Shown here: in pieces, positions 52,284 through 64,000 of the stretch
How positions within the stretch are numbered: the stretch's first letter is position 1
How the letters are laid out: the number at the start of each line of letters is the position of its first letter
Source: Verrucomicrobiota bacterium
GTDB lineage: Bacteria > Verrucomicrobiota > Kiritimatiellia > CAJWTS01
Length of the DNA stretch: 64,000 nucleotides
NCBI GenBank assembly: GCA_027623315.1
Contig: JAQBYD010000006.1
Coordinates: 27,209 to 91,208 of the forward strand
Direction: 5' to 3'
Translations under genes and position numbers: made by a program
Notes under the pieces: model-generated
Seen by the model: the letters and a program-made list of their open reading frames with translations, nothing else
Databases searched by the model: none
Told to the model about the DNA's origin: nothing

Positions 52284-52676
52284 ATGGAAACGTATCGACG
52301 CTTAGAAGACTGGGTCGTCGATCAGAAACTTTGTCGTCTGCCCATTGAGATAGGCGCACTTACCCACCGGTGGCCAGCGGAGGAGAAGTACGATGATCGG
52401 CACGTTCGCAACACGATCGAGGGAGTCAACAGAAGCCGGGGAGAGGCGGCGGAGACTGTGCATCACCTGTACATGGCCCACCTCAAAGGATATGAAACTC
52501 AGACGACGCACGAGGAGTATCGCGTTCGATATCAGGAGTGCATCCGGATGCTCAACGATATGGAACGTACTCTTGAAAAGCAATTGCCGGAGTCCGAGCG
52601 TCGCTGGCCCAATGTGTCCGTGCGGGAAGATGGCGAAACCTATGGAGCCTCCGCTTTTGGATTTCCTGAACCCTGA
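52284..52676 (+). CDS. Small hypothetical protein (130 aa) bracketed by the inverted repeats
   Basis: ATG 52284 preceded by GGGAGGAAGAG, a strong SD. Charged helical protein METYRRLEDWVVDQKL... The stop codon TGA lies inside the right IR. Confidence 0.5.
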   Translation: METYRRLEDWVVDQKLCRLPIEIGALTHRWPAEEKYDDRHVRNTIEGVNRSRGEAAETVHHLYMAHLKGYETQTTHEEYRVRYQECIRMLNDMERTLEKQLPESERRWPNVSVREDGETYGASAFGFPEP

Positions 52677-52685
52677 ACCCTGAGT
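52671..52685. repeat. Right arm of 15-bp perfect inverted repeat (gaaccctgaaccctg)
   Basis: Reverse complement of 52257-52271. The two arms are 399 bp apart. Confidence 0.8.
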
Positions 52686-53013
52686 AGTTGCGGAAAATGT
52701 ATGCAAACGACATACCCGTGGCCGGCCAACAGACTCGCTCAGTTATTTAAAACCATTGCCCAAAATGAAAGTCTCAACGCAATCAACCTGATGAACAAGG
52801 GCAACGTAAACCTGATCCTGAATCGACCCAGCGGCACGGCAGCCTGTATTGCCAAAGTCAAAATGCGTTCGGAGGCTATATGGCGCAGTCTTCCGATTAT
52901 CATTACCGGGCCCGCGGCGCGAGCCGCTATTGATGCCAGTGGCTTTGTCCGGAAAAACGACGGGGTGTTTCCCGCATCCGGGAATACCTTGTTAGTCCTT
53001 AAAGGGTTCGGAC

Positions 53014-54195
53014 TTGTTCTTGCGGTCATGCATCGCAGGCACTATTTTAGACTCCGTGAATATCCTGACCGCATATGCATGGTTTAAGCCCACGGGCATG
53101 GGTTCACGCATGCACCGTACTATGGAGCTGCTGGCCGAGTACGGTCATGACGTGGATTGGGTCGGCGTGTCCCCGCCTCCGATAAAAAGCCGTCAACTGC
53201 ACTTCCACCGTTTGTTTGAATGGCATGACAGCCCCAATCACCGGAAGCTCTATTTCTGGTTCAGGTACCATGCCGCCGCGATCAATGCCTGCAACCGGCT
53301 CTCCCGATCGAAACCCTATGCCGGCTTTGTATCTTTTACGGTAAGCGCGGCCTTTCCTCTAATCCGTGCAGTCAAACGGTCTGACAAGCCGTTCATTGTA
53401 TTCATCCGGTCGAATGAGATGGTCGAAAACAGGATAAAAGGGGTGACGGCTCCTCTCCAGTGGCTGGTAAACAAAGCTTCGAAAAAGGTTATTGAAGCCG
53501 CCTCCACGCTTGTATTCGTGAATCAGACCCTGCTTGATCGCTACTGTGAAGCCTATGGACCCCACATACGAAAGCGGTCTTTGGTCCTGTACAATGATCT
53601 GCCTGAAGTTCCGTTAGCCGCGTCTTCCCACACATCTATACCGGAGGTTAAAAAGGCACCCCTTGCTGTCGTCTGCGGACGGCTTGATAAAAATAAAAAT
53701 ATCGCCCTGGTGCTGCGCGCTATGACGGGCGATATCGCCAATGCATGGCACCTGCTGATTGTTGGAGACGGACCTGAGCGCAGCGGACTGGAGGAGTTGG
53801 TTCAGTCATTGAACTTAGCGGAAAGGGTCAAGTTTGCGGGATGGAGCAATGATGCCCCTGGCCTGACGGCACAGGCTGACTGCTTTATTCTGCCTTCGTA
53901 CAGCGAGGGTGTTTCCAATGCGCTTCTGGAAGCGCTGGCATGCAAAAAACCCTGTCTCGTCAGTGACATCCCCGAACACCGGGAGCTTTTCCCTGACGGA
54001 GAGAACCTGTTCAATCCAGATCAACCCGAAACACTTTCCCGCATGCTGGCCGCCCTTTTTAGCGACGACCCATTGGCGGATCGAATCAGAGCCGCATGTC
54101 GGGAGGCTGAACTGTTATTCCCGACCGACTGGGATTCGGAAGCCTATCGCATTATTACCACGGCGATGAATTGCACTGAGAGTCATGGGATATGA
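53014..54195 (+). CDS. Family 4 glycosyltransferase
   Basis: The track start 53014 is TTG. Alternative starts are GTG 53056 or ATG 53098. The start is uncertain. C-terminal FILPSYSEGVSNALLEALACKKPCLVSDIPEHRELF (EX7E region). Confidence 0.7.
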   Translation: MFLRSCIAGTILDSVNILTAYAWFKPTGMGSRMHRTMELLAEYGHDVDWVGVSPPPIKSRQLHFHRLFEWHDSPNHRKLYFWFRYHAAAINACNRLSRSKPYAGFVSFTVSAAFPLIRAVKRSDKPFIVFIRSNEMVENRIKGVTAPLQWLVNKASKKVIEAASTLVFVNQTLLDRYCEAYGPHIRKRSLVLYNDLPEVPLAASSHTSIPEVKKAPLAVVCGRLDKNKNIALVLRAMTGDIANAWHLLIVGDGPERSGLEELVQSLNLAERVKFAGWSNDAPGLTAQADCFILPSYSEGVSNALLEALACKKPCLVSDIPEHRELFPDGENLFNPDQPETLSRMLAALFSDDPLADRIRAACREAELLFPTDWDSEAYRIITTAMNCTESHGI

Positions 54196-55343
54196 AGATT
54201 CTATATTTTCATACAGGCCGGGTAGAGGCGCGGCAGGCCAATCTTACTCAAACGCTACAGATGGTTACCGCGTTCACGGAACTGGGCCACGCAGTGACAT
54301 TAGCGTTGAACACATCGCGCTGCACCCAGGCAGAGGGTGAACAGATAGTGAAGGAGCAGCTCAATCTCACCGAACTGCCATTTCTGATCAAAATCTACAA
54401 AGGGCGGTCTCTATGTGGGCGGTTTCGATCTCTGGGCGCCGCGGATGCAGCCCTCAAGCTAAGCCAAGAGACCCGCTATGATTTCATTTTTGTTCGAAAC
54501 CCGCTTCCCTTGCCCCTTTTAAAGAAGGCCGCCTGCCCGGTGATATTTGAGGCGCACCATACAGACTGCTTCGATAAGCTCCCGTTTTTTGATTGGTGGT
54601 GGCGCCGTCGAATCGTCGCCCTGGCGTGCTCGGATCAAATGCCCGTTATGATTGCCATATCGCAGGCCCTTGCAAATTGGTGGACCGCGGCGGGTGTGCC
54701 GTCCAGTAAAGTGCTGGCGCTGCATGATGCCGTCAATCCGACCTTTATCCCGGCCGGTCTGGATCAGATGTCGGCCCGCAAAGAACTCGAACTTGCCGCT
54801 GAGCGACCTGTTGTGCTTTACGCCGGCAGTTTATATGCCGATCGGGGGGCTGACACAATTCTGCGTCTTGCGGATATGCGCAGGGATGCCTTGTTTGTTG
54901 TGGTGGGTGGACCTGAGGAAACAGCGAAAGCGTTAGCGGCGAAAGCGGAAAAGACACAAATTGAGAATATCCGTTTTGAGGGGCGTGTTCCTCATTACCG
55001 TATCGCGCACTATCTTGCGGCCGCCGATATTCTGCTCATGGTCTGGTCATGGAAGGTCAAAACCATTCATTACTGCAGCCCATTGAAATTATTCGAATAT
55101 ATGCTGGCTGAGCGTGAGATAGTCGGGCAGGCATTCCCGACTATTCTGGAGGTCATAGAGGACGGTGTGCATGCGCGACTTGCGGATCCGGACTCCTTCG
55201 AGGATTTAGTGGATAAGCTGAGCGGAGCGCTAGACCATCCGAATCCGGAATTAGCCCGGGCGGCACGCGTGCTGGTAATTCGGGAATATACCTGGCAAAA
55301 CCGTTGCAGGCAGATTATTGAAGCGTTTGAAGGACCCCTATGA
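54192..55343 (+). CDS. Family 4 glycosyltransferase
   Basis: 383 aa. MKILYFH... N-terminus, C-terminal GT-B region. ATGA overlap with the previous GT4. Confidence 0.8.
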   Translation: MKILYFHTGRVEARQANLTQTLQMVTAFTELGHAVTLALNTSRCTQAEGEQIVKEQLNLTELPFLIKIYKGRSLCGRFRSLGAADAALKLSQETRYDFIFVRNPLPLPLLKKAACPVIFEAHHTDCFDKLPFFDWWWRRRIVALACSDQMPVMIAISQALANWWTAAGVPSSKVLALHDAVNPTFIPAGLDQMSARKELELAAERPVVLYAGSLYADRGADTILRLADMRRDALFVVVGGPEETAKALAAKAEKTQIENIRFEGRVPHYRIAHYLAAADILLMVWSWKVKTIHYCSPLKLFEYMLAEREIVGQAFPTILEVIEDGVHARLADPDSFEDLVDKLSGALDHPNPELARAARVLVIREYTWQNRCRQIIEAFEGPL

Positions 55344-55345
55344 AA

Positions 55346-56245
55346 CTATGTCCCGGAATAGCCCAGTTTTCGATTCAGGGGGCCTGCTGTTCGCTCAAAG
55401 ACAGCTAAATCCTTTTCGGTCAGCCTGCTTTTCCATGTCTCTACATTTACGATTTTATCTTCACCGCTGAACCGCATCCTGTTTCCACCGATAAGGTGCC
55501 GCTCCCGGCCTCTTAAGTGCAGTATATCCTCTGTGTAGGGTTTTTCCAGAAAGTCTGCGAGTTCACGCATGGTACTTTCCGGGTCGCGGCAAAGATCTTC
55601 ATACCGCAGTGCTTTCAGGTTCATGGAAGGGCCGGATCTAAATATGGATCCCGCCATCCGGTTGTCGTGGAGCCATGTTTTGGCAGCACGCTCTGCCGGC
55701 ACCTCTTTACGCATGGCGGAGGCCATGACGGCGCGCCCATCCCGAATTAGATGAATCACCCGTGCATTGCGCGGGAGCCGGGTCCTCAACCATTGCGCTG
55801 TCATAATGGACTTCGATGAATCGACAACGGCCTCGGCGGGTGCCGTTTTCAGGACGGCATCATAGAGCCGGATCATATTTTTGAGGATTGCATCGCTGCC
55901 AAATCCGGCGCAGCCCTGTGGGTGAATGACCGCGGAAGCCAGCCGGGCATAAAAGCTGAGCTTCTGGAGTTGGTTGTTTCGCTCGGCTTCGAGGGAGAGG
56001 CGGAAGGCATTTATGGTTTGATCGGCCGCTGTATCCCCCGCCAGCCCCAGTTCGTCTAAAATGGGATTCCAGAAGGGGCATGTTTGCGGTGGTTTCCCGC
56101 AGGTGCAGTGTTCATGCGTTTTGAGGAACAGAGGCAGCCATTTCACTTCACCCAGCGAGACGGTGCCGGACATGTTTCCTATAAGCAAATCCAGAAGCGT
56201 GGATCCACTGTGCCCCGAACTGAAAATGTATATGTATCGAACCAT
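55346..56245 (-). CDS. Sulfotransferase (Sulfotransfer_3-like, P-loop 5'-PSB)
   Basis: ATG at 56245 gives MVRYIYIFSSGHSGSTLLDLLIGN, a PAPS 5'-phosphosulfate-binding loop. The track start at 56296 is GTG. 3'-PB-like RDGRAVMAS. Converges with the upstream GT4 (3-nt gap). Confidence 0.65.
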   Translation of the reverse strand: MVRYIYIFSSGHSGSTLLDLLIGNMSGTVSLGEVKWLPLFLKTHEHCTCGKPPQTCPFWNPILDELGLAGDTAADQTINAFRLSLEAERNNQLQKLSFYARLASAVIHPQGCAGFGSDAILKNMIRLYDAVLKTAPAEAVVDSSKSIMTAQWLRTRLPRNARVIHLIRDGRAVMASAMRKEVPAERAAKTWLHDNRMAGSIFRSGPSMNLKALRYEDLCRDPESTMRELADFLEKPYTEDILHLRGRERHLIGGNRMRFSGEDKIVNVETWKSRLTEKDLAVFERTAGPLNRKLGYSGT

Positions 56246-56317
56246 GTTCGCGTCAGTTCGAAATAGTAATGAAGTGCGTGGTCTGCTGCGGATCACTTCT
56301 TTCGAATAGCCTTTGCA

Positions 56318-58099
56318 TCATTCCGCATCAGTATCTGGTGAAGCCGGGCCGCTTTGCGCCAGCCTAAAGAAATAACCCTGTTGGGCCATAAGTTCATCAT
56401 AGGTCCCCTGCTCCACAACTTTCCCTGCATCAAAGACGAGAATCCGGTCGGCCTTGCGAACGGTTGTCAAACGATGCGCGATTACGATCGTGGTGACCTT
56501 GCCTTTAAGTTCTACGATGGCTTCCTGGATCTTTTTTTCAGAGGTCATATCCAAAGCACTGGTCGCTTCATCCAGTATAAGGATCTCGGGTTCTACCACG
56601 AGCGCCCTGGCCAGCGCAATGCGTTGACGTTCTCCCCCCGACAGACCGGCGCCATGTTCGCCCAGTACGGTTTCATATCCTTCCGGAAGGCGCTGAATAA
56701 ACGCATCCGCATGCGCCAAACGGCAGGCCTTTTGAATACGCTCCATGCTCAGGCCTTCGCTGCGGAAGTCCACATTCCGGGCGATGGAATCGTTGAGAAT
56801 GAAAGGGTCCTGCGATACGTAACCCATCTTTTTACGATAGCTGGTCATACTGAGGGTGGCCAGTTGATCGTTCCCGACCCTTATCTCGCCGCTGTTCGGC
56901 CGCAGAAGCCCCACGAGTAAATCCGCGGTTGTCGATTTTCCGGCTCCCGATCCGCCGACCAAACCGATCATGGCACCGGATGGAATATCGAAATTCAATG
57001 GGCCAATGCAATGCTCCTGCCCTCCCGATGCGTAGCGGTAAGTGACTTCCTGAAAGGAAATTCCATCGCCCACACTTTCAAAAGTGCGTCCTGCATTCTC
57101 GTCGGGATATTGATTGGATTTTAATTCGCTGATGTTTTCTTCAAAGACATCCAGAGCCGCCATGTGTCTGAGAATTTTGTAGTGCATGTTCTGAATCGTT
57201 CTCAGGGACTGATACATTCTGGCTGCCGCGACGATAAAGGCAAAAAAGATTGTGAGGTTGAAATCGAAAATGAGGTAGATCATCAGCGCCAGGACTATCA
57301 CCATTGGCTCAAAGATCGAATTGAGTGAACCTTCGGCTACAGCCAGCTTCAATTCGGTTCGACTATACCTGGACAGGGTCTTGTCCATGTGCCGCCCGAT
57401 GCCGTCTTCGCAGACGAAGCTTTTCATGACGCGGTAACCGCTGAGGCTATGATTTACGGTTTCCTGAATTTCAGCCTGGCAGGCCGCGACAGTATGCCCC
57501 CAGCGCCGTGCTGAGAGGAAAACCGATCGGATCAGGAAATAAATGACCGCAGAGAAGGCCAGTACAAAAAGAGAAAGTTCCCAGGATATCAGCACGACCA
57601 CAATAACCGAAAACAGGACATCCACGGCGGAGGTGGCATAGCGTGAGACGAAGTTCAGCAACCGGGAAATCATACGCGTTTGCGTCACGACGACATCCGT
57701 AAGTTTCCCGAAATTCCGGCTGTACAGAAAAGGAAGTTCCGCATGCAGCAGCGCATCCAGTGCGATGCGTTTCTTGTGACATTCCAGGCCTACCTCGACT
57801 GATTTCATCAGGGCATTCTGAAGCACCAACATGGCGGATCGTGCTGCGACAATGAAGAAGGTAACGATCAGGATGTTTTGAAAGGTAGGTTCAAGCCCAA
57901 TTCCGTTGAACAACCCGATGAACAGCCGCCCGAACAAGCTGTCCGGATTAGGGGCCTCGTCCATGAGTGCGGTCATCAGCGGGATAATGGCCGCAATACT
58001 CGCCCCGCCTAAAAAGCCGGTAAAAAGCAACAACAGAAAAATAATTGACAGCCTTAATCGGTAATATTTTAACCCGAGGCGAATTACATTGGCTATCAT
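56318..58099 (-). CDS. ABC transporter, fused permease/ATP-binding protein (type I exporter, MsbA/PglK-like)
   Basis: 593 aa. Six N-terminal TM helices, Walker A GGSGAGKST, signature LSGGERQRIALARAL, Walker B ILILDEATSALD, H-loop IAHRL. Confidence 0.85.
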   Translation of the reverse strand: MIANVIRLGLKYYRLRLSIIFLLLLFTGFLGGASIAAIIPLMTALMDEAPNPDSLFGRLFIGLFNGIGLEPTFQNILIVTFFIVAARSAMLVLQNALMKSVEVGLECHKKRIALDALLHAELPFLYSRNFGKLTDVVVTQTRMISRLLNFVSRYATSAVDVLFSVIVVVLISWELSLFVLAFSAVIYFLIRSVFLSARRWGHTVAACQAEIQETVNHSLSGYRVMKSFVCEDGIGRHMDKTLSRYSRTELKLAVAEGSLNSIFEPMVIVLALMIYLIFDFNLTIFFAFIVAAARMYQSLRTIQNMHYKILRHMAALDVFEENISELKSNQYPDENAGRTFESVGDGISFQEVTYRYASGGQEHCIGPLNFDIPSGAMIGLVGGSGAGKSTTADLLVGLLRPNSGEIRVGNDQLATLSMTSYRKKMGYVSQDPFILNDSIARNVDFRSEGLSMERIQKACRLAHADAFIQRLPEGYETVLGEHGAGLSGGERQRIALARALVVEPEILILDEATSALDMTSEKKIQEAIVELKGKVTTIVIAHRLTTVRKADRILVFDAGKVVEQGTYDELMAQQGYFFRLAQSGPASPDTDAE

Positions 58100-58180
58100 A
58101 TGAGTTATCTTTAACTGATGTTTACGGTCACTTGTCGTACGATCAAGCGGATGCGAAATGGCGGACTGTTTGAAAAAAAG

Positions 58181-59473
58181 TTAAAGGAGGTCTTCGGGCT
58201 TTCGTCCAGCTTTTAATATAATCTCAAGTGAGGCTAAAAAAATAAGTTGATTGGACAAATCAGCATGATTGTTCTGGTGTGTATTCCATATTTCATCCAA
58301 GTCCAACCAGTTGACAATGTTTCGTTTTTTCAAATCATTCAAATTCTCTCTCATTGAATCTCTGAGATCTTTCCTGCTTTGTATGGAGGTTTTGAAATCC
58401 AGATAGTTCAGCATCCTATTTCGAACAGCATTCGGCCTTTTTGACGGAAATTTTTTACGCAATATGTTGCCGGCATGTGCGCAGGCATAAGGCAGTTTGC
58501 CTGTCTTTAGTCCCAGGCCATAATGAGATTTAAGCGGGATGCGGCTCATTTCCGGAAAATATTCCAGAATCATACCTTTATACAGACTGCAATTTTTGCG
58601 ATGCACCCTGGGCAGGTTAGTGAAAAATGCCAGCACCTCGGGGTCTGAAAATGGCGTTTCAAAGCATAGTCCTTTATGTAGAACACTCGGCGCTATCAAC
58701 TTCGCCTGTCGGTTTGAAAAATCCCAGCATTCTTCAATTGAGAAAGTGGTACCTGTTGCATTATCCGGATAGTCGAGAAGTGAGACATACTGCTTATGCG
58801 CTAGTACGTCTAGGCGCAGATTGCTTGTTTTACGTCCCTCTTTTTCGAGAAAACGGTAAGCCGCCAGCGGCTTTGTTGGTGCTGGTGAATGAGGCATGCG
58901 TGACCCGGCGAGATAGTCACCAAGGAAACCAGACCAGACCCGAGTGTTACCATAGCGTTCAACAAGTTTTGTTACCGGAGCTCCATGATATACCTCTGTC
59001 TGTAAATCGAAAGCTTTGGCTTTTAGAACAAGAGACTCCGTATCGTAAGGGCATTCATGTAGCGATAACGGATTGTGTTCCACCCCGTAAAACCTAGCGA
59101 CCTGGGCGCCAATTTCAAAATCAAAAGATCCCGGAAGCCCATACGTGAAGGTTGTGACCTTCGCGGCGGGCACCTGCTCCATTAAAAGAGCAAGAATAAG
59201 CCTACTGTCTAATCCACCACTCAGCGGAACCGCCTGGATCTTATCGGTGTCCAGTCGTTTGTCGATGGAGTTGCGTATAAGATGAATAGCCGTCTGCTTG
59301 AGTTCCTGCGTCGTCGCATGCTGTATATCTGACCTTGGTCCATAAAAAGTTCTGAGCGCAGGCGGGCTGCAGTAATTCAGAAAATAGCCAAGCCGAAGGT
59401 AGGCGTTCAGGGAAAGACTGTTTTTGAAATCATCGGCCTGAACCGCTGGACTACCCCCATCCCATGTATTCAT
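58181..59473 (-). CDS. Asparagine synthetase-like amidotransferase (AsnB C-terminal synthetase domain only, no glutaminase domain)
   Basis: 430 aa. PP-loop SGGLDSRLILALL as in AsnB/WbpS-type enzymes. No N-terminal Cys glutaminase domain. Confidence 0.65.
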   Translation of the reverse strand: MNTWDGGSPAVQADDFKNSLSLNAYLRLGYFLNYCSPPALRTFYGPRSDIQHATTQELKQTAIHLIRNSIDKRLDTDKIQAVPLSGGLDSRLILALLMEQVPAAKVTTFTYGLPGSFDFEIGAQVARFYGVEHNPLSLHECPYDTESLVLKAKAFDLQTEVYHGAPVTKLVERYGNTRVWSGFLGDYLAGSRMPHSPAPTKPLAAYRFLEKEGRKTSNLRLDVLAHKQYVSLLDYPDNATGTTFSIEECWDFSNRQAKLIAPSVLHKGLCFETPFSDPEVLAFFTNLPRVHRKNCSLYKGMILEYFPEMSRIPLKSHYGLGLKTGKLPYACAHAGNILRKKFPSKRPNAVRNRMLNYLDFKTSIQSRKDLRDSMRENLNDLKKRNIVNWLDLDEIWNTHQNNHADLSNQLIFLASLEIILKAGRKPEDLL

Positions 59474-60492
59474 GGTGATACGGCCCCAGCATCTACAGTA
59501 CTTTCAATAAAGGTCTGCATTAAGCCGATATAATGTTCCCGATATTCTTCAAACGTATCCGGACGAACAAGGTGAGGACGTGTCCTATTCTCCGTGGGGT
59601 CCATTTCATTTGCGATAGATTTCCAAACATGTGTAAGAAAGTGCTTTCCATCATACGAGTTATCGGTGTCATAGGTCAACGCCCCTGGGGCTGAAAAATC
59701 GTAAAACTCATCCGCAATAATTGAAAGACGCCTTGCCACATGAAAAAATGATTCTTCGTTTTTGTAGTAATCCTTATATACTTCCCATGGACTTACGGGT
59801 GGAGCATAAAGAATGTAGTGTGCGTTGGGGAAAACTGAATGTAGCTCGTCATAGAGTTCCACCCATTCAATTTGATATTTTTGAGGACTAATTTTTCTGC
59901 GAAATGCTGGGCGATAAGGTTTGAGCCCGGGGATAGGCTGGCAGGCAAAGTTTTGGTCATAATATCGTTGTCCGGTTCTCGATGGAAATTGTCTGCGGAG
60001 GGTCTGTCGAGACCATTGAACAACATCCCAACTCATATAATTAGCCCATTTAGAGGGTGGTCGTTTGAACTCGTCAACCCAGTCGGGTACCTCACGCTGC
60101 GGGTCGCCATAAAAATTAAACATGGATGCTTCGACGAGAAGGACCTTGGGCTCATATCCTTTACTCTTTAAGTAGCGCGCATACGCTATAAACTCCCTGA
60201 TTCGTCCTGCACTGAATGACAAATTAAACGAATCACCACCACAGAAATCACGCTGATCAAGTAAAGTCGTTCTGGAGCTCCCAAGGATCAGGCAGGCAGG
60301 ATCGGATTTCCGGCGTTCGAAAAGATAAATTTTTGTTAGTCTCTCGTTAAAAGCAATATTGGTGTCAAAGAGCTTATTGCCGCCAAAGGCCCACAGCGGA
60401 TCCACCACCAGGTTAAACCCCACCACGGCGCCCAATCCAATGACTAGCAGTCCACATAGAACACAGGCATATACTTTGAAAGAATTACACAT
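59470..60492 (-). CDS. Membrane-anchored hypothetical protein, possible DltD/AlgJ-like O-acyltransferase partner of the MBOAT
   Basis: 340 aa. N-terminal anchor MCNSFKVYACVLCGLLVIGLGAVVGF. CLILGSSRT resembles the DltD GSS block. 1-nt gap, in line with the MBOAT gene. Assigned mainly from context. Confidence 0.4.
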   Translation of the reverse strand: MCNSFKVYACVLCGLLVIGLGAVVGFNLVVDPLWAFGGNKLFDTNIAFNERLTKIYLFERRKSDPACLILGSSRTTLLDQRDFCGGDSFNLSFSAGRIREFIAYARYLKSKGYEPKVLLVEASMFNFYGDPQREVPDWVDEFKRPPSKWANYMSWDVVQWSRQTLRRQFPSRTGQRYYDQNFACQPIPGLKPYRPAFRRKISPQKYQIEWVELYDELHSVFPNAHYILYAPPVSPWEVYKDYYKNEESFFHVARRLSIIADEFYDFSAPGALTYDTDNSYDGKHFLTHVWKSIANEMDPTENRTRPHLVRPDTFEEYREHYIGLMQTFIESTVDAGAVSP

Positions 60493-62042
60493 TAGAAATT
60501 GAAGTAGATAAATTCACTGACACGGTTTAATCGTACGAGACAATATAATAAAATAACAGCTATGAAGCAGGCCCATACAGGGCTCGGGGCCCATTGGAAC
60601 CAGCGGGGGCGTCCCGCTTCAACCTTGTATCCTGCCGTGTGCATATAGGGTCGGCAGCTTCGAAAAAGCTGCATCGAATTCGGAGCAAGAAAACAAAGGA
60701 GGAAGGCGCACAGGATTAACCGGATATCCCCGGATACCCGCACTTTACGTATTTGAGCCCATTCAGCGCCGGATAGCCATTCGGACAGCGCGGGACTTCC
60801 CGCGATCCATTCCTTCGGGATAATCATTCCGTTGGATCCAATCATGCCGTTCAGCACAGCCAGCGCTCCATCCAGCGATTCTGCCCGAAACAAAACCCAG
60901 CTGATAACCACGGCCAGAAAGGTTATCGACTGGGCCAAAATTTTCCATGCCGCATTGGTATCGGATAACAGGCCCCACTTAGGTTTGAGATGGTGCCAGC
61001 CATGGTTGATGCAAATATACAATCCATGCAGCCCCCCCCAAATGACAAAAGTCCACCCGGCTCCGTGCCATAATCCACCCAGCAGCATGGTGATCATCAG
61101 GTTTCTGTAGCGGAACAGTCGCCCTTTTCGGCTGCCGCCGAGCGGAAAATACAGGTACTCCCTCAAAAACCGTGACAAGGTCATATGCCACCGGCGCCAG
61201 AATTCGACAATGCTCCTGGACTTGTACGGGGAGTTGAAGTTGACCGGCAAGCGGATGCCGAAACATCGCCCCAATCCTATCGCCATATCGGAGTATCCGG
61301 AGAAATCAAAATAGAGTTGAAAGGTATAGCCGAGTGCACCCATCCACCCGGAAAGAAAATCTATGGGCCGTCCCAGTTCGGCACTCTGAAAGACTGGATT
61401 CGCAATGAGTGCCAGATTGTCGGCAAGAATAGATTTTTTGAAAAGGCCCAAGGCAAAAATGCTTAACCCCACGATAAGGTTTCGAAGGATCTGCTTTTTC
61501 CGGGGAGCCATACGTTCAAACTGGGGAAGCATTTCCCTGTGATGAACGATCGGGCCTGCAATTAACTGGGGGAAAAAGGAGACGAAAAGGCAGTAATGGA
61601 TGAAGTTGTATTCTTTGGTCTCGTGGCGGTAGGAGTCCACCAGATAGGTGATCTGTTGAAATGTGAAAAAGGAGATGCCAAGAGGCAGTAGAATGTCCGG
61701 GACACGCCATCCGCCATTCAGTAACGCATTGGTGTTTTCAATGAAAAAACCGGCGTACTTGTAGTAGCCGATGGTAAGGAGATTGACCCCAATCCCCAGG
61801 GCAAGCATCCGACGCGTTCGCCACTTTTCTTTCAGCATCAATCGTCCCATGCCGTAGTTGAACAGCATGGAAACGGCGATCAATATGAGATATTGAGGGT
61901 TCCACCAGGCATAAAAAAACAGGGATGCGACAGCAAGCCATGCATAACGCAGTTCCCTGTTATTAAACTGTTGAAGGCAAAGGTACACCGCGAGGGTAAT
62001 CGGAAAAAACCAGAAGATGAATTCAAAGGTGTTAAAAAGCAT
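60492..62042 (-). CDS. MBOAT-family membrane-bound O-acyltransferase (AlgI/DltB/PatA-like)
   Basis: 516 aa, polytopic. Conserved WRRWHMTLSRFLREYLYFPLGGSR and catalytic His region LGGLWHGAGWTFVIWGGLHG. Confidence 0.85.
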   Translation of the reverse strand: MLFNTFEFIFWFFPITLAVYLCLQQFNNRELRYAWLAVASLFFYAWWNPQYLILIAVSMLFNYGMGRLMLKEKWRTRRMLALGIGVNLLTIGYYKYAGFFIENTNALLNGGWRVPDILLPLGISFFTFQQITYLVDSYRHETKEYNFIHYCLFVSFFPQLIAGPIVHHREMLPQFERMAPRKKQILRNLIVGLSIFALGLFKKSILADNLALIANPVFQSAELGRPIDFLSGWMGALGYTFQLYFDFSGYSDMAIGLGRCFGIRLPVNFNSPYKSRSIVEFWRRWHMTLSRFLREYLYFPLGGSRKGRLFRYRNLMITMLLGGLWHGAGWTFVIWGGLHGLYICINHGWHHLKPKWGLLSDTNAAWKILAQSITFLAVVISWVLFRAESLDGALAVLNGMIGSNGMIIPKEWIAGSPALSEWLSGAEWAQIRKVRVSGDIRLILCAFLLCFLAPNSMQLFRSCRPYMHTAGYKVEAGRPRWFQWAPSPVWACFIAVILLYCLVRLNRVSEFIYFNF

Positions 62043-62065
62043 ATCACCGGCGACCCAATTGGAAA

Positions 62066-62815
62066 TTAATGTTTATCTTTAAATTGAATGAACGCCGCCG
62101 CGTATCTCTTTCCCAGTTCCTGCGCGGACGAATAGTCGAAATGCCAACGATCATAGGCCGTGAGCCCGTCGGAGGTAACAAAGGCGGTCCCTGGCGCTTT
62201 CTCAGTCAAATTCGCGAGTCTCCGGTTAAACTCTGGCGCATTGTGTATGCCCCCGGCAATGAAGGGGACTTCCATTTCGAGTGTGCTCCGAAATTCATAT
62301 ATAAGGCTGCAGAGTTGATCCAAGTATTCTCTATCTTCTATATTGCGCTCACCCTGATGCCAGAGAATGGCCTCGAGGTGCCCCTCATTTTGTTCAAGGG
62401 CACTGCGAATGCGGCGAATTGCCTCACTAAAATAGGGCTGCCCTTTCCGCCACTCTGTAATACTAGATCCCCCTCGTGCATTGATAACCAACCCGACCTG
62501 AATTCCCGGCTTGTACTCAAGAAGATGTTTTCCAAAAGCTTCACAGAAATTATACCGCTGAAGACCAAGACTTTTACGGATTGTCGAGTATCGGTTGTAA
62601 GGTTGCCGAGCGGTTTCCCATTTATTTTCAGCATTAAAAAGCAATATATCAGAGACTTCTCCTGATGCCTCGGGAATCGGACTCCGCCCAGCCATATTAC
62701 TTTGCCCGATACAGAGAAAAACCCATAATGCAGGCTTTTTTTGATCTTTTTCCTTCTTTATCTGAAAGACTTTACTGCACATAAAGCTTAATATAAGCCC
62801 AAGCATAAGCAGCAT
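62066..62815 (-). CDS. SASA/DUF303-type carbohydrate esterase (sialate-O-acetylesterase-like SGNH hydrolase)
   Basis: Block I CIGQSNMAGRSP, central GG, C-terminal DxxH-like (DRWHFD). The track start is 62905. I prefer ATG 62815 (MLLMLGLILSFMC, a signal), which removes the 77-nt overlap with the upstream gene. Start uncertain. Confidence 0.6.
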   Translation of the reverse strand: MLLMLGLILSFMCSKVFQIKKEKDQKKPALWVFLCIGQSNMAGRSPIPEASGEVSDILLFNAENKWETARQPYNRYSTIRKSLGLQRYNFCEAFGKHLLEYKPGIQVGLVINARGGSSITEWRKGQPYFSEAIRRIRSALEQNEGHLEAILWHQGERNIEDREYLDQLCSLIYEFRSTLEMEVPFIAGGIHNAPEFNRRLANLTEKAPGTAFVTSDGLTAYDRWHFDYSSAQELGKRYAAAFIQFKDKH

Positions 62816-62828
62816 GCCGAGCACTTTT

Positions 62829-64000
62829 TTACAACTCAACTGCTTCCATAAGAAAGGCATCGCAACCAACCTCGTTGAACTGCATAGGAGGCAGTTCGGG
62901 TTCAATAGCCCTGAGAAGTTCTACTTTTTCAGAAAGTTCCTTTTCGTGAAGGCATTCAAATTTATAGCGGGCAATCGATTGACCCCTGAAGAGAGCTCCT
63001 CCAAACTTACTTTTCCGTAAACGACCTAAGCCATTTCGGTAATTTCTTAAGAGTTCTTCTTTAGGCGTTGACGGAAAAGTTTTCACCTCAGGGGCGCATC
63101 CTGCGTAATGATTAGAGATAAGTTCGACAATTGAGCTGGTGGAAGATCCGTCAAGTTTAGCAATGACAGGCTCCAGGAGCTTTTGACGTGCCGACCGCTG
63201 TTCGGAGCTAAGTTGATAAGATCCGTCCAGTGTGCTTTTCACCCAGTTGATCAAGTCTTTGTGGTTATCAAGCGTTTCACTTATTGCCCTCGGCAGCGGC
63301 TTGCTTAGCTCTGGATGGTAAATTGGCGCGTACATAGCAACTGGCAGGCCGTGAACAAACGCTTCGACTGCCGTTGTGCAGCCATGATGAATGACGGAGG
63401 CCGCATTGATCAGCCACATTTGCACCGGCCCCTCTCGCAGGACAAAGATATTTTCAACTTGCTTGAAGGTGTGTCTGTAGAAATCAAGATTTTCGGTAGG
63501 ATGAGGGCGAATAACAATAGAGCGTGGCGCTATGGCCTTGCTGAGTGCGTGGATGGCTTCAATAAAGAAGCCGGATAAAAGGCCATGATAATGGCATAGC
63601 ATATCTTCATGGAGACTGTTGTAGGATTTTCCCTGCGCTTGATTGCGCAGGGCTTTAAGTTTTTCGGCACCGAGATAATGATGAGCACGCTGAAAGTTGG
63701 TGTTGATTAGAACGTACGGCTCATTTTTGAATCGACTGTCTTTCTGCTGTGCTTCGAAATACGAAGCAAACCTTTTAGCGCATAAATCAAATCTGGGGTT
63801 CCCAACTACATTAAATTTTTCTGGGTCATCAGATGCCTTTTCTCGGAGGAGTTCGGTTTTTTGCCATTCCCCCCATAGCAGTGTCATCAAGGAAAGACTG
63901 ACAGCGCTTGGAGGATTGCGTTGTACCAGAGCGGTGCTGTTTTCGACGTAAATTCCACCCTCCTCATCCATACGGATCAAATCACCGCCTCGTTCCTGCA
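62829..64000 (-). CDS. Putative capsule-polysaccharide biosynthesis glycosyltransferase (KpsS/KpsC-like family?), N-terminus probably beyond the window
   Basis: The frame stays open to the window edge. The track M at 63980 is TTG. Internal ATG at 63971. Motif IHHGCTTAVEAFVHGLPV. The family assignment is tentative. Confidence 0.45.
   Translation of the reverse strand, partial: QERGGDLIRMDEEGGIYVENSTALVQRNPPSAVSLSLMTLLWGEWQKTELLREKASDDPEKFNVVGNPRFDLCAKRFASYFEAQQKDSRFKNEPYVLINTNFQRAHHYLGAEKLKALRNQAQGKSYNSLHEDMLCHYHGLLSGFFIEAIHALSKAIAPRSIVIRPHPTENLDFYRHTFKQVENIFVLREGPVQMWLINAASVIHHGCTTAVEAFVHGLPVAMYAPIYHPELSKPLPRAISETLDNHKDLINWVKSTLDGSYQLSSEQRSARQKLLEPVIAKLDGSSTSSIVELISNHYAGCAPEVKTFPSTPKEELLRNYRNGLGRLRKSKFGGALFRGQSIARYKFECLHEKELSEKVELLRAIEPELPPMQFNEVGCDAFLMEAVEL

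What the first reader, a model, noticed from the sequence alone, without database searches (positions are those of the whole stretch)
52700..64000. Compositionally distinct (lower-GC) glycan-modification module: ABC exporter, AsnB-like amidotransferase, MBOAT + DltD-like partner, SASA esterase, sulfotransferase, GT4s
GC content drops visibly after about 52.7 kb (AT-rich stretches appear, for example 58.1-58.4 kb), which suggests separate horizontal origin. Gene content implies a glycan that is O-acylated (MBOAT 60492-62042 plus a membrane-anchored partner), trimmed or de-O-acetylated (SASA-type esterase), amidated on uronic or sugar-acid residues (synthetase-only AsnB, as in WbpS-type enzymes), sulfated (55346-56245) and exported by an MsbA/PglK-type ABC transporter, not by Wzx. 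Together with the high-GC module, this yields an unusually decorated product: sulfate + O-acetyl + amide.
Basis: partly seen in the sequence, partly recalled or inferred. Interest (0 to 1): 0.6.

Follow-up and report, generated by a model that had tools for sequence, protein, structure and literature searches.

The report
Strain-variable sialic-like surface-sugar gene cassette
A low-GC block of about 20 kb, carried by only some co-occurring strains of an uncultured Verrucomicrobia bacterium, most likely makes, attaches and decorates a sialic-acid-like sugar on the cell surface; it is a fairly ordinary kind of swappable surface-sugar locus with an unusual mix of decorating enzymes.

Summary
The GC drop is real and strong: 0.615 left of 51.8 kb against 0.53 then 0.47 to the right, and gene GC3 of 0.75 against 0.55 with no overlap. 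It starts at about 51.8-52.0 kb, not 52.7 kb. It continues past the window for about 21 kb, to the end of the source scaffold.

The unassigned partner protein has an SGNH, DltD-like fold.

It holds a TIGR04396 protein with sialyltransferase motifs, a short NeuB-type synthase, a CMP-sugar synthetase and a GT28-like protein. The cassette is therefore built around a nonulosonic (sialic-like) acid.

The block is strain-variable. Contigs from the same samples share the high-GC flank almost base for base, then switch inside a pyruvate-phosphate-dikinase gene remnant to a different cassette. All eight differences in the switch zone fall on third codon positions.

A syntenic cassette (42-79% protein identity for most genes) occurs in an unrelated metagenome.

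Verdict: a new member of a known kind, namely a hypervariable surface-glycan cassette. Which polymer the MBOAT-SGNH pair acylates, and what the AsnB-like enzyme amidates, are inferred only.

The parts
51602..51802 (+). Remnant of a pyruvate phosphate dikinase gene: the last ~66 codons plus the stop. It anchors the junction. Haplotypes a and b are identical up to 51738, then differ at 8 sites (51739-51781), all at third codon positions, and become unalignable after the stop.
   Evidence: PF02896 PEP-utilizers_C, 47.3 bits (cutoff 22.8), profile positions 245-291 of 293. No other PPDK motif anywhere in the window or related contigs. SNP positions; sequences.
51823..51858 (+). Perfect 14-bp hairpin followed by a T-run: the intrinsic-terminator-like end of the former PPDK gene. 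Variant b has its own, different hairpin at the same place.
   Evidence: Inverted repeat I6, 100% complementary; sequences; the terminator scan lists the inner part at 51841-51853.
52258..52682 (+). Four-helix-bundle (23S-rRNA-IVS-protein family) gene at 52284-52676, bracketed by a 19-nt inverted repeat. It is the first gene of the low-GC stretch and probably a small passenger element, not a glycan gene.
   Evidence: TIGR02436, 30.2 bits (cutoff 24). Repeat arms at 52258-52276 and 52664-52682: 2 matches against 0.02 expected by chance. GC3 0.595.
52701..53087 (+). 128-aa ORF called as a gene by three gene callers. No family match; function unknown and possibly not a real gene.
   Evidence: no Pfam hit. 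GC3 0.566.
53122..54195 (+). GT4 glycosyltransferase (357 aa; the longest ORF starts at 53014).
   Evidence: PF00534, 108.8 bits; PF13692, 104.7 bits. Gene call.
54192..55343 (+). GT4 glycosyltransferase (383 aa), 47% identical to its counterpart in L013.
   Evidence: PF13692 52.1, PF00534 51.4, PF13439 42.5 bits.
55346..56245 (-). Cytoplasmic PAPS-type sulfotransferase (299 aa); last gene of the minus-strand operon.
   Evidence: PF13469, 51.7 bits (cutoff 27); PF00685, 34.6 bits. No membrane segment.
56318..58099 (-). ABC half-transporter with a fused membrane domain and ATPase, MsbA/HepA-like. Proposed exporter or flippase of the lipid-linked glycan.
   Evidence: PF00664 + PF00005. HepA 325 bits and MsbA 323 bits, both below their equivalog cutoffs. 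MsbA 9bd6 aligns full length, 238.7 bits. A homologous exporter occurs in 6 of 36 TIGR04396-family loci and next to NeuB in 5 of them.
58181..59473 (-). Stand-alone AsnB-type synthetase domain (430 aa, PP-loop S85-G-G-L-D-S90, no glutaminase domain). Proposed ATP-dependent amidation of a sugar carboxylate.
59470..60492 (-). Membrane-anchored SGNH-fold partner of the MBOAT (340 aa). Invariant G71-S72-S73-R74, G96, F125-N126 and D281-G-x-H284. Proposed to carry the acyl group from the MBOAT's tyrosine to the glycan.
60492..62042 (-). MBOAT acyltransferase (516 aa) with the WHG histidine (H326) and the C-terminal acyl-shuttle hexapeptide F511-I-Y513-F-N-F516 (codons at 60495-60512).
   Evidence: PF03062, 129.3 bits. 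DltB model 182.7 bits, below its cutoff of 375. FXYXXF motif defined in PMC12148441 and present in 5 of 5 MBOATs paired with this SGNH family.
62066..62860 (-). SASA/CE6-family carbohydrate O-acetylesterase (264 aa) with an N-terminal hydrophobic segment, so extracytoplasmic. GQSN and DRWH motifs are present.
   Evidence: PF03629, 158.8 bits (cutoff 24.8). Nearest solved structures are 1zmb (acetylxylan-esterase-related) and 2apj. Hydrophobic segment. Motifs read from the translation.
62829..64000 (-). 3' 1172 nt of the TIGR04396 gene. The full gene is 461 aa and its start lies 214 nt past the window end. Proposed transferase for a CMP-activated nonulosonic acid; it carries the sialyltransferase motifs D83-E-E-G and H238-P.
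   Evidence: TIGR04396, 273.6 bits (cutoff 125) for the full protein; BFO_1060 family 72.7 bits, below its cutoff of 200. Motifs invariant in 6 sequences; the same motifs are described in validated Pse/Leg transferases (PMC5420450). Family neighbourhoods.

Best explanation
The low-GC segment is one allele (variant a) of a hypervariable part of a surface-glycan locus in an uncultured Verrucomicrobia bacterium. It is about 20-21 kb long and was brought in by recombination, with one crossover in the 3' end of a former pyruvate phosphate dikinase gene.

Its core is one operon on the minus strand: GT28-like protein, CMP-sugar synthetase, short NeuB-type synthase, TIGR04396 transferase, SASA esterase, MBOAT, SGNH partner, AsnB-like synthetase, ABC exporter, sulfotransferase. 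Glycosyltransferases flank it: two GT4s on one side; a large GT-C-like membrane protein, a GT4 and a polyprenyl-phosphate GT2 on the other.

Proposed mechanism, with all steps inferred from family membership:
(1) In the cytoplasm, the NeuB-type enzyme condenses PEP with a sugar to give a nonulosonic (or related ulosonic) acid. The cytidylyltransferase activates it as a CMP-sugar, and the TIGR04396 protein transfers it to a lipid-linked oligosaccharide built by the GT4s.
(2) Still in the cytoplasm, the sulfotransferase adds sulfate. The AsnB-like enzyme adenylates a sugar carboxylate and converts it to an amide, using ammonia or another amine because it has no glutaminase domain.
(3) The MsbA-like ABC transporter moves the lipid-linked glycan across the inner membrane.
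(4) Outside, the MBOAT takes an acyl group (probably acetyl) from cytoplasmic acyl-CoA onto its C-terminal Tyr513. The membrane-anchored SGNH partner passes it via Ser72 or Ser73 to a glycan hydroxyl. The exported SASA esterase removes such groups again, so the level of O-acylation can be adjusted.
For: Foreign and variable:
- GC3 separates completely between the two sides, and the tetranucleotide signature differs.
- Contigs L004, L006 and L008 share 20.4 kb of flank with one SNP. They then diverge inside the PPDK remnant into a different cassette with its own terminator, a 701-aa membrane protein, a GT2 that is 62% identical, and a homologue of the 893-aa protein.
- All 8 differences in the switch zone are at third codon positions.
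- Three assemblies carry the cassette contiguous with the a-type PPDK end (L001, L002, L003). A k=31 Logan contig (L010) joins the flank to the a-type end at 100% identity.
- A syntenic cassette occurs in an unrelated metagenome: NeuB 79%, ABC 60%, MBOAT 59%, GT28-like 56%, TIGR04396 55%, partner 50%, AsnB-like 42%.

Ulosonic-acid core:
- PF03102 at 100 bits, with the GLSDHS and EKHF motifs aligned to C. jejuni PseI.
- CTP_transf_3 at 74.9 bits, best equivalog PseF.
- TIGR04396 at 273.6 bits with sialyltransferase motifs.
- Of 36 family loci of at least 8 kb, 19 carry a CMP-synthetase homologue, 11 a NeuB and 6 the ABC exporter. L144 adds a HAD phosphatase, two full-length NeuB genes and a sulfotransferase.

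O-acylation:
- MBOAT with WHG and a terminal FIYFNF.
- Adjacent SGNH-fold protein with invariant Ser, Gly, Asn and Asp-x-x-His blocks and a membrane anchor.
- The pair is conserved in all five loci examined.
- An MBOAT + SGNH transferase + esterase trio mirrors the PatA/PatB/Ape1 operon (PMC12148441).

Amidation:
- Whole-protein AsnB-synthetase fold, with all top matches being carboxylate-adenylating C-N ligases.
- A family member in Oceanobacillus kimchii sits beside a UDP-sugar 6-dehydrogenase in a polysaccharide locus.

Topology.
Against: - No step has biochemical support, and nothing shows that all these enzymes act on one glycan.
- The genes for the usual early steps of pseudaminic, legionaminic or neuraminic acid synthesis are absent from the cassette.
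- The NeuB-type protein is only 231 aa, lacks the C-terminal SAF domain and scores far below the NeuB and PseI equivalog cutoffs. The cytidylyltransferase is also below the PseF cutoff. So the sugar could be something other than a classical nine-carbon acid.
- More distant MBOAT-partner pairs sit in housekeeping neighbourhoods without glycan genes, so this pair's target is not fixed by family.
- The nearest solved relatives of the SASA protein are acetylxylan-esterase-like, not sialate esterases.
- The SGNH model is only moderately confident (pLDDT 67).
- The far end of the cassette was not reached, and no donor lineage was identified.
- One Logan contig (L005) stops at 51623, earlier than a simple two-haplotype picture predicts.
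Confidence: 0.6

Rival explanations
1. The join between the high-GC and low-GC parts is an assembly artefact. On this view the low-GC contig belongs elsewhere, either in the same genome after an intact PPDK gene or in another organism, and was joined to the high-GC cluster through the shared PPDK 3' sequence.
For: In two of three assemblies the cassette contig ends inside the PPDK remnant (L002 at 51685, L003 at 51660). In those same assemblies the high-GC flank continues into a different sequence (L004, L006, L008). An NCBI MAG contig of the flank also stops there (L009 at 51687), and a Logan contig stops at 51623. The composition differs sharply on the two sides.
Against: A Logan contig built with k=31 and no scaffolding (L010) runs from 46038 to 52682 at 100% identity. 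It crosses the remnant into about 880 nt of a-specific sequence. That should not be possible if the 137-nt shared stretch were present twice in the genome sampled. L001, L002 and L003 overlap L010 by about 1 kb of a-specific sequence and continue into the cassette. The same run also yields a cassette contig, L183. Variant b has the same architecture (remnant, stop, hairpin), as expected of allelic arrangements. No other PPDK motif occurs in any contig held.
Confidence: 0.08
2. The segment is real and in place but is not a recent import. It would be an old, vertically inherited hypervariable glycan region whose low GC reflects local mutation or selection pressures, with alleles a and b kept in the population by diversifying selection.
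For: Variant b is also compositionally off (GC3 0.60-0.67 against the host's 0.75), so the whole variable region deviates whichever allele is present. No integrase, tRNA or direct repeats flank it. Surface-glycan loci are commonly lower in GC than their genomes (own knowledge).
Against: The neighbouring 16-kb glycan cluster at 35-51.6 kb has fully host-like GC3 of 0.70-0.77, so glycan function alone does not lower GC in this genome. The two haplotypes differ by one SNP in 20 kb of flank and then become unalignable, which indicates recent replacement rather than ancient divergence in place. The synonymous-only differences in the switch zone point to alleles that diverged as parts of functional genes in different lineages. 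The cassette's GT2 has its best genome matches (44-54%) in Planctomycetota, CPR bacteria and archaea rather than Verrucomicrobia. This rival overlaps with the best explanation: both treat a and b as alleles and differ only on timing.
Confidence: 0.2
3. The MBOAT, SGNH partner and SASA esterase form a self-contained O-acetylation and de-O-acetylation system for another polymer, such as peptidoglycan (as with PatA/PatB/Ape1) or an unrelated exopolysaccharide. On this view they merely travel with the ulosonic-acid genes.
Against: In both known copies of the cassette, the MBOAT and partner lie inside the operon between the TIGR04396 and AsnB-like genes, with overlapping or abutting reading frames: 60492 is both a start and a stop, and 59470-59473 overlap. 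The strain-variable presence argues against a housekeeping wall function. In L013 the SASA gene is absent and a GDSL esterase sits at another position, so the esterase is a looser component.
Confidence: 0.15
4. A Dlt-like aminoacylation system. On this view the AsnB-like enzyme activates an amino acid or other carboxylate as an adenylate, and the MBOAT and SGNH partner transfer it to the glycan as an ester, by analogy with DltA/DltB/DltD.
For: The best NCBIfam match of the MBOAT is the DltB model at 182.7 bits. DltD gives the longest fold alignment with the partner. An adenylating enzyme is encoded directly downstream.
Against: The DltB score is below half its cutoff of 375. There is no carrier protein or DltX-like microprotein gene; the gaps in the operon are at most 82 nt. 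The MBOAT carries the acyl-shuttle motif fused to its own C-terminus, which the literature ties to acyl-CoA-using systems (PMC12148441). Family members of the AsnB-like enzyme occur without any MBOAT, and MBOAT-partner pairs occur without it.
Confidence: 0.04

Closest known systems
PatA/PatB/Ape1 peptidoglycan O-acetylation cluster, and the wider MBOAT/SGNH acyltransferases (AlgI/J/F/X for alginate, WssH/I for cellulose, PatA1/B1 for secondary cell-wall polysaccharide) (PMC12148441)
   Same: An MBOAT with the catalytic His and a C-terminal FXYXXF tyrosine shuttle. A separate, membrane-anchored, extracytoplasmic SGNH-fold protein is encoded next to it, and an esterase gene lies in the same operon.
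   Different: The SGNH partner belongs to a family with no Pfam or NCBIfam model, although it has 2096 cluster representatives at E <= 1e-3. The esterase is SASA/CE6-type rather than Ape1-type. The trio sits inside an operon for a CMP-activated ulosonic acid, a polymer class not among the known targets of these systems.
Tannerella forsythia protein O-glycosylation locus, with strain-specific Pse or Leg modules and the Tanf_01245/BFO_1060 transferases (PMC5420450, PMC6120980)
   Same: A strain-specific nonulosonic-acid module, followed by a transferase with D/E-D/E-G and HP motifs, inside a larger glycan locus that also encodes an AsnB-type enzyme.
   Different: The window's transferase belongs to TIGR04396 and scores below the BFO_1060 family cutoff (72.7 against 200). 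The T. forsythia AsnB is 605 aa with the glutaminase domain. That locus uses Wzx, has a full pseBCFHGI set, and has no MBOAT/SGNH pair.
WbpS/WbqG/PGN_1234 uronamide-forming amidotransferases (eps_aminotran_1, TIGR03108) (PMC7468200)
   Same: An AsnB-type synthetase domain encoded in a glycan locus. The predicted chemistry is conversion of a sugar carboxylate to an amide.
   Different: WbpS-type enzymes are full-length, with an N-terminal glutaminase domain (628-position profile). The window's protein is 430 aa, synthetase-only, and scores 19.8 bits against a cutoff of 816.9. Its best structural match is the hydroxyamidotransferase TsnB9.
Serotype-determining O-antigen and capsule loci exchanged between conserved flanking genes (own knowledge, e.g. 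galF-gnd in E. coli, dexB-aliA in pneumococcus)
   Same: Alternative, mutually unalignable cassettes at one chromosomal site in near-identical genomic backgrounds. They have lower GC than the genome, divergent versions of shared genes, and a crossover in a conserved flanking gene.
   Different: The anchor here is a truncated, non-functional PPDK fragment. The second anchor was not found. The host is an uncultured aquatic Verrucomicrobia bacterium.
Known bacterial sialate O-acetyltransferases (NeuO, NeuD, OatC, OatWY, C. jejuni Orf11) and eukaryotic CASD1/SIAE (PMC8319020)
   Same: If the MBOAT-SGNH pair acts on the ulosonic-acid glycan, the outcome would be an O-acetylated sialic-like acid plus a matching esterase. 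CASD1 likewise combines a multi-pass membrane part with an SGNH-like catalytic domain.
   Different: The listed bacterial enzymes are other proteins that act during capsule or sugar-nucleotide synthesis; no MBOAT appears in that review. CASD1 is not an MBOAT. The target of the pair here is not shown.

Membership tests
Bacterial MBOAT/SGNH polymer O-acyltransferase systems (PatAB type) | MBOAT domain with the conserved catalytic histidine | tested here: met
   PF03062, 129.3 bits against a cutoff of 27. WHG at residues 325-327, conserved in 5 of 5 related MBOATs.
Bacterial MBOAT/SGNH polymer O-acyltransferase systems (PatAB type) | C-terminal FXYXXF acyl-shuttle hexapeptide fused to the MBOAT | tested here: met
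   The protein ends in FIYFNF. All five MBOATs paired with this partner family end in EF[IL]YF[NQ]F. The motif is defined in PMC12148441.
Bacterial MBOAT/SGNH polymer O-acyltransferase systems (PatAB type) | Adjacent gene for an extracytoplasmic SGNH-fold protein with a Ser/His/Asp triad | tested here: met
Bacterial MBOAT/SGNH polymer O-acyltransferase systems (PatAB type) | Auto-acylation of the motif tyrosine from acyl-CoA, then transfer to the polymer | not testable with these tools
   Needs a biochemical assay with labelled acetyl-CoA and the Y513F and S72A/S73A variants.
Dlt system (DltA/B/C/D/X) | DltB equivalog score; DltD Pfam domain; carrier protein, ligase and DltX microprotein genes | tested here: not met
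   TIGR04091 scores 182.7 bits against a cutoff of 375. The partner has no DltD Pfam hit. There is no room for extra genes in the operon. The shuttle motif is fused to the MBOAT instead of sitting on a DltX.
WbpS/WbqG (eps_aminotran_1, TIGR03108) | Full-length AsnB with an N-terminal glutamine amidotransferase domain, scoring above the family cutoff | tested here: not met
   19.8 bits against a cutoff of 816.9, matching only profile positions 232-321 of 628. The protein is 430 aa and its alignments start at the PP-loop region.
AsnB-type synthetase domain (PF00733; AsnB, beta-lactam synthetase, carbapenam synthetase, TsnB9) | PP-loop SGGxDS and the synthetase-domain fold | tested here: met
SASA (PF03629) carbohydrate esterases | Domain score above cutoff and catalytic motifs | tested here: met
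   158.8 bits against a cutoff of 24.8, covering profile positions 3-226 of 226. GQSN and DRWH are visible in the translation.
SASA (PF03629) carbohydrate esterases | Specificity for O-acetylated sialic acids | not testable with these tools
   The nearest solved relatives are acetylxylan-esterase-like (1zmb, 2apj). No sialate esterase was matched at E <= 0.001.
Nonulosonic acid synthases (NeuB/PseI/LegI) | NeuB TIM-barrel domain with the metal-binding histidines | tested here: met
   PF03102, 100.1 bits against a cutoff of 22.1. GLSDHS and EKHF align with C. jejuni PseI 8h2c.
Nonulosonic acid synthases (NeuB/PseI/LegI) | Equivalog-level score and a C-terminal SAF/antifreeze-like domain | tested here: not met
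   NeuB 97.9 bits against 399.65; PseI 97.5 against 340.25. The protein is 231 aa with no SAF hit, whereas the NeuB genes in L144 do carry SAF. The L013 orthologue is also short, at 230 aa.
CMP-ulosonic acid synthetases (CTP_transf_3; NeuA/PseF/KdsB) | Domain score above cutoff; assignment to a specific equivalog | tested here: inconclusive
   PF02348 at 74.9 bits against a cutoff of 22.6 is met. The best equivalog, PseF, scores 102.8 against 205.7 and is not met.
TIGR04396 'surface carbohydrate biosynthesis protein' | Score above the family cutoff | tested here: met
   273.6 bits against a cutoff of 125 for the full 461-aa protein, and 215.7 bits for the part inside the window.
BFO_1060 family (validated Pse/Leg-derivative transferases of T. 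forsythia) | Family score; D/E-D/E-G and HP sialyltransferase motifs | tested here: inconclusive
   The score of 72.7 bits against a cutoff of 200 is not met. The motifs D83-E-E-G and H238-P are present and invariant in 6 sequences (motifs described in PMC5420450).
MsbA/PglK/HepA-type ABC exporters | Fused ABC_membrane + ABC_tran half-transporter; equivalog-level identity | tested here: inconclusive
   The architecture is met, and MsbA aligns full length. All equivalog cutoffs are missed: HepA 325 against 725, MsbA 323 against 602, PglK 216.5 against 1000.
Classical integrative genomic island | Flanking tRNA gene, integrase or transposase, direct repeats at the ends | tested here: not met
   The only tRNA call is at 6514-6588. 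No integrase or transposase domain appears among the cassette genes. Only short chance-level direct repeats were found. The far end was not reached.
Classical integrative genomic island | Deviant composition and presence in only some strains | tested here: met
   composition; alternative junction in the same samples.

The most novel reading that the evidence does not exclude
The MBOAT, its SGNH partner and the SASA esterase form a post-export O-acylation and de-acylation system dedicated to a nonulosonic-acid glycan. This would be the first bacterial sialic-like-acid O-acyltransferase of the MBOAT/SGNH type and a functional parallel to eukaryotic CASD1/SIAE. In the same pathway, a stand-alone, glutaminase-less AsnB-like enzyme would amidate the ulosonic-acid carboxylate and neutralise the sugar's charge. 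The short NeuB (no SAF domain), short cytidylyltransferase and GT28-like protein would make a non-classical ulosonic acid from a common precursor.
Probability: 0.25. Interest if true: 0.6.

Novelty: new member of a known kind. Interest (0 to 1): 0.35.

Why it matters
The finding gives a concrete, sequence-resolved case of surface-glycan cassette replacement between co-occurring strains of an uncultured aquatic Verrucomicrobia bacterium. The crossover can be located to within about 40 nt. Variation of this kind is thought to drive escape from phages and grazers in free-living bacteria.

It also marks out three poorly characterised protein families for testing, all encoded in one conserved operon:
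- an MBOAT-associated SGNH family with no Pfam model;
- TIGR04396, as a probable nonulosonic-acid transferase;
- a roughly 400-aa synthetase-only AsnB family.

If the MBOAT-SGNH pair does act on the ulosonic-acid glycan, this would extend the known targets of such systems beyond peptidoglycan, alginate, cellulose and teichoic acids or wall polysaccharides. Otherwise the locus is an ordinary, if richly decorated, polysaccharide gene cluster.

Tried and rejected
- Classical island markers: only one distant tRNA, no flanking direct repeats, and no integrase among the genes. The 'integrative island' reading is rejected.
- Rfam over the whole window: no match.
- Promoter and terminator scan of 51.5-64 kb: promoter-like sites at chance level, 14 against 12.3 +/- 3.2. 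No conclusion drawn about an internal promoter in the AT-rich 58.1 kb gap.
- Sequence search of the partner protein against solved structures: only noise. The fold search was needed.
- The first homologue search for the partner gave 7 hits and suggested a very rare family. The exhaustive profile search corrected this to 2096 representatives, so 'rare family' is rejected.
- Pfam scan of ten diverse partner-family members: no model covers them; one sub-threshold GDSL hit.
- Genome scan with the TIGR04396 pair: no relative confirmed.
- Genome scan with the GT2: 80 loci, none with the cassette, and no informative close relative of the host. Neither a donor lineage nor a second anchor could be identified.
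- Look-up of the 2232-aa protein to annotate the left end: not on record.
- Simple insertion model (variant a = variant b plus an insert): rejected. The shared genes are only 35-62% identical and are differently oriented.
- Dlt-like aminoacylation with the AsnB-like enzyme as activator: rejected (see rivals).
- Literature search for the sample accessions: nothing found, so the environment of origin is not established.
- GT28-like protein as PseG: no PseG model hit, and only MurG at E = 0.67 among solved structures. Left unresolved.

Full report
1. OBSERVATION

The compositional break is real. In 1-kb windows, GC is 0.567-0.659 everywhere in 1-52 kb and 0.434-0.542 everywhere in 52-64 kb. Segment means are 0.615, 0.531 (51.8-58.1 kb) and 0.470 (58.1-64 kb). 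At 300-nt resolution the first step lies at about 51.85-52.0 kb and a second at about 58.0 kb.

Third-position GC separates the genes completely: 0.750 +/- 0.023 for 27 genes on the left and 0.555 +/- 0.058 for 17 genes on the right (U = 459 of 459, p = 3e-8). Four genes form a still lower core at GC3 0.42-0.47: the AsnB-like, partner, SASA and TIGR04396 genes.

Markov-normalised tetranucleotide profiles also differ. High-GC segments correlate 0.46-0.59 with the rest of the high-GC part. Segments wholly in the low-GC part correlate 0.24-0.32 with it.

The neighbouring glycan cluster at 35-51.6 kb has fully host-like GC3 (0.70-0.77). Low GC is therefore not a general property of glycan genes in this genome.

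2. SOURCE AND EXTENSION

The window is part of a 100,139-nt metagenome scaffold (ERZ23495043 scaffold_355). The same DNA occurs in a second ENA assembly, in a JGI metagenome and in Logan contigs. NCBI names the organism 'Verrucomicrobia bacterium' and marks it as a MAG.

The low-GC stretch continues beyond 64000 for another 8.8 kb, to the scaffold end: 21,009 nt in all, GC 0.512. The last gene on the scaffold (256 aa, no family match) has GC3 0.77. This is a one-gene hint that the far boundary lies just before it.

3. GENE CONTENT

- two GT4s;
- Sulfotransfer_3;
- ABC_membrane + ABC_tran (HepA and MsbA models at about 325 bits, below their cutoffs; MsbA aligns full length);
- Asn_synthase over the PP-loop only;
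- MBOAT at 129 bits;
- SASA at 159 bits.

The ORF at the window's edge is the 3' part of a 461-aa gene of family TIGR04396 (273.6 bits against a cutoff of 125). Upstream of it in the same operon lie a 231-aa NeuB-family protein (PF03102, 100 bits), a 200-aa cytidylyltransferase (CTP_transf_3, 75 bits; best equivalog PseF) and a GT28_C/MJ1255-like protein. Beyond these are a divergently transcribed 893-aa multi-pass membrane protein with weak PMT_2/WsfD similarity, a GT4, and a GT2 of the polyprenyl-phosphate glycosyltransferase type (AglJ/PpgS-like).

3a. The MBOAT pair

The MBOAT has the WHG histidine and ends in FIYFNF. This matches the FXYXXF acyl-shuttle motif that defines acyl-CoA-using MBOAT/SGNH systems (PMC12148441).

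The family is not rare: an exhaustive search found 2096 cluster representatives at E <= 1e-3. In all five loci examined an MBOAT with the same terminal motif lies directly upstream.

3b. The AsnB-like enzyme

The protein belongs to a family of roughly 400-aa proteins found in polysaccharide loci. In Oceanobacillus kimchii a member sits beside Wzx and a UDP-sugar 6-dehydrogenase.

It is not a WbpS-type enzyme. WbpS/WbqG belong to eps_aminotran_1 (PMC7468200), and that model scored 19.8 bits against a cutoff of 816.9.

3c. TIGR04396

The protein carries the D/E-D/E-G and HP sialyltransferase motifs (invariant in six sequences). The same motifs are described in the genetically validated Pse/Leg-derivative transferases of T. 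forsythia (PMC5420450). Its score against that family's model is below the cutoff (72.7 against 200).

Of 36 metagenomic loci of at least 8 kb that hold a family member, 19 have a cytidylyltransferase homologue, 11 a NeuB homologue and 6 a homologous ABC exporter. None has an MBOAT, partner, AsnB-like or SASA gene. One such locus, L144, holds the exporter, a HAD phosphatase, two full-length NeuB genes, a cytidylyltransferase and a sulfotransferase.

So synthase, activator, transferase and exporter form a recurrent core. The acylation, amidation and esterase genes are additions particular to this cassette.

3d. SASA

The domain assignment is solid. The nearest solved relatives, however, are acetylxylan-esterase-like proteins, so the Pfam name alone does not establish sialate specificity.

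4. THE SEGMENT IS STRAIN-VARIABLE

Contigs L004, L006 and L008, from the same two samples that also yield the cassette as a separate contig, match the window from 31368 to 51790 and then continue with different sequence.

Over those 20.4 kb they differ from the window at one site (45918). They then differ at 51739, 51748, 51751, 51769, 51772, 51775, 51778 and 51781. All eight sites are third codon positions of a reading frame that ends at 51800-51802; the chance of that under random placement is (1/3)^8, about 1.5e-4.

That frame is the last 66 codons of a pyruvate phosphate dikinase gene (PEP-utilizers_C, 47.3 bits, profile positions 245-291 of 293). The rest of the gene is gone, displaced by a minus-strand glycosyltransferase gene. 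Both variants keep the stop codon and a terminator hairpin, though a different one in each, and are unalignable beyond it.

Variant b continues with a 701-aa membrane protein that shows no detectable similarity to any protein of variant a, a GT2 that is 62% identical to variant a's, and the C-terminus of a homologue of variant a's 893-aa protein (35% identity, E = 2e-10). The arrangement also differs. Its genes have intermediate GC3, 0.60-0.67.

The two variants are therefore alternative alleles of a hypervariable locus; variant a is not variant b plus an insert. The synonymous-only differences suggest that the two PPDK ends diverged while they were parts of working genes. This is what one expects if cassettes are exchanged by homologous recombination with a crossover at about 51700-51739. 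That last step is an inference.

5. IS THE JOIN REAL?

The cassette contigs L002 and L003 stop inside the remnant, which could indicate a chimeric scaffold. Three points argue against this:
- A k=31 Logan contig (L010) runs from 46038 to 52682 at 100% identity, crossing the remnant into about 880 nt of a-specific sequence.
- L001, L002 and L003 overlap that a-specific kilobase and continue into the cassette.
- The same run also yields a cassette contig, L183.

I put the chimera rival at about 0.08. One loose end remains: the Logan contig L005 stops at 51623, earlier than a two-haplotype picture predicts.

6. A SECOND COPY OF THE CASSETTE

A 25-kb contig from an unrelated metagenome (L013) has nearly the same genes in nearly the same order: GT28-like 56%, cytidylyltransferase 52%, NeuB 79%, TIGR04396 55%, MBOAT 59%, partner 50%, AsnB-like 42%, ABC 60%, GT4 50%, membrane protein 31%, GT4 47%. 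The sulfotransferase is barely related (25% over half its length). There is no SASA gene; a GDSL esterase lies upstream instead. Its GC is 0.52.

The operon is thus a conserved unit. Scans of 185,579 species-representative genomes found no further copy. The cassette's GT2 has its best matches (44-54%) in Planctomycetota, CPR bacteria, Chloroflexi and DPANN archaea.

7. MECHANISM (INFERRED)

Topology predictions place the NeuB-type, cytidylyltransferase, TIGR04396, sulfotransferase and AsnB-like proteins in the cytoplasm, and the SGNH partner and SASA esterase outside. The most economical reading has four stages:
- cytoplasmic synthesis, CMP-activation and transfer of a nonulosonic-type acid onto a lipid-linked oligosaccharide;
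- cytoplasmic sulfation and ATP-dependent amidation of a carboxylate;
- export by the MsbA-like transporter;
- periplasmic O-acylation through the MBOAT Tyr513 shuttle and the SGNH partner, with the esterase removing acyl groups.

An MBOAT + SGNH transferase + esterase trio parallels the PatA/PatB/Ape1 operon.

Weak points:
- The classical early pathway genes are absent.
- The NeuB-type protein lacks the SAF domain and, like the cytidylyltransferase, misses the equivalog cutoffs.
- Nothing proves that the enzymes share a substrate.

8. COMPARISON AND NOVELTY

Each component belongs to a known superfamily, and the locus as a whole is a familiar kind of thing: a swappable surface-polysaccharide cassette.

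Not described, as far as the literature I could search shows, is an MBOAT/SGNH pair inside a nonulosonic-acid operon. A review of sialate O-acetylation lists NeuO, NeuD, OatC, OatWY and Orf11 as the bacterial enzymes and never mentions MBOAT.

I class the finding as a new member of a known kind and score interest at 0.35. The more novel reading, a dedicated MBOAT/SGNH O-acylation system for a sialic-like glycan plus amidation of its carboxylate, gets a probability of about 0.25.

Noticed in passing
window 52258-52682: A four-helix-bundle gene of the 23S-rRNA-intervening-sequence protein family (TIGR02436, 30.2 bits against a cutoff of 24) is bracketed exactly by a 19-nt inverted repeat, CAGGGTTCAGGGTTCGGGA (2 matches against 0.02 expected). 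The Logan contig L010 ends exactly at the outer end of the right arm. It may be a small mobile or RNA-processed element sitting at the cassette boundary.
   Followed up: partly
window 51602-51858: A PPDK gene remnant (the last 66 codons) with its terminator hairpin intact. The 5' part of the gene has been displaced by a minus-strand 572-aa glycosyltransferase gene that starts at 51583. No other PPDK motif occurs in any contig held.
   Followed up: yes
window 51623 (end of locus L005): The Logan contig from run SRR2027830 stops about 115 nt before the first difference between haplotypes a and b. That is earlier than a two-haplotype graph predicts. A third haplotype, or an intact PPDK copy sharing sequence, may be present in that sample.
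   Followed up: no
window 35000-51583: The high-GC glycan cluster has host-like codon composition. It holds Sulfotransfer_2 (36098-36811), Sulfotransfer_4 (44536-45126), a GDSL lipase, an RhaA-like isomerase (36943-38283), at least seven GT2/GT4 genes, and four proteins with no Pfam or NCBIfam match (38293-41367, 1024 aa; 43317-44522; 47103-47975; 47932-48747). No Wzx, Wzy or initiating phosphoglycosyl transferase was seen.
   Followed up: partly
window 19138-27105: One 2655-aa ORF (reprolysin-type metalloprotease, Calx-beta and CLIPPER repeats). It is intact here and in a JGI contig (2625 aa) but split into 1165-aa and 1468-aa genes in the NCBI MAG contig L011. This is either a frameshift or an assembly difference.
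   Followed up: no
window 6514-6588: ARAGORN calls a tRNA-Val (anticodon cac) here, but the Rfam scan of the whole window at gathering thresholds reported nothing, not even the tRNA family.
   Followed up: no
window 241-6253: A compact set of genes on the minus strand: GT2, TPP-dependent E1 alpha and beta subunits, two ketoacyl synthases and a short-chain dehydrogenase. It may be a small acyl-chain or polyketide-like pathway. It is unrelated to the finding.
   Followed up: no
loci L100-L179 (e.g. L144 1-13500): Across metagenomes, TIGR04396-family genes recur with cytidylyltransferase genes (19 of 36 loci of at least 8 kb), NeuB genes (11 of 36) and an MsbA-like ABC exporter (6 of 36, next to NeuB in 5 of them). 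L144 also has a HAD phosphatase, two NeuB+SAF genes and a sulfotransferase. This suggests a widespread, uncharacterised module for exporting nonulosonic-acid glycans.
   Followed up: partly
loci L018 (10001-11206) and L019 (10001-12979): The synthetase-only AsnB-like family occurs in Oceanobacillus kimchii beside Wzx, GT4s and a UDP-sugar 6-dehydrogenase. In another metagenome contig it occurs as two adjacent paralogues near a PEP mutase and a sulfotransferase. It also occurs in a Lokiarchaeota MAG, according to a source annotation.
   Followed up: partly
window 58181-60492 and 62066-64000: Within the low-GC cassette, four genes (AsnB-like, SGNH partner, SASA, TIGR04396) have GC3 of 0.42-0.47. 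The MBOAT gene lying between them has 0.60, and the rest have 0.55-0.62. Their L013 counterparts all have 0.54-0.58. The cassette may itself be a mosaic.
   Followed up: no
loci L020-L099: The polyprenyl-phosphate GT2 of the cassette has relatives at 34-54% identity in Planctomycetota, CPR bacteria, Chloroflexi and DPANN and other archaea. In 14 of 80 loci it sits near a homologue of the cassette's 404-aa GT4, so the two form a recurrent gene pair.
   Followed up: partly
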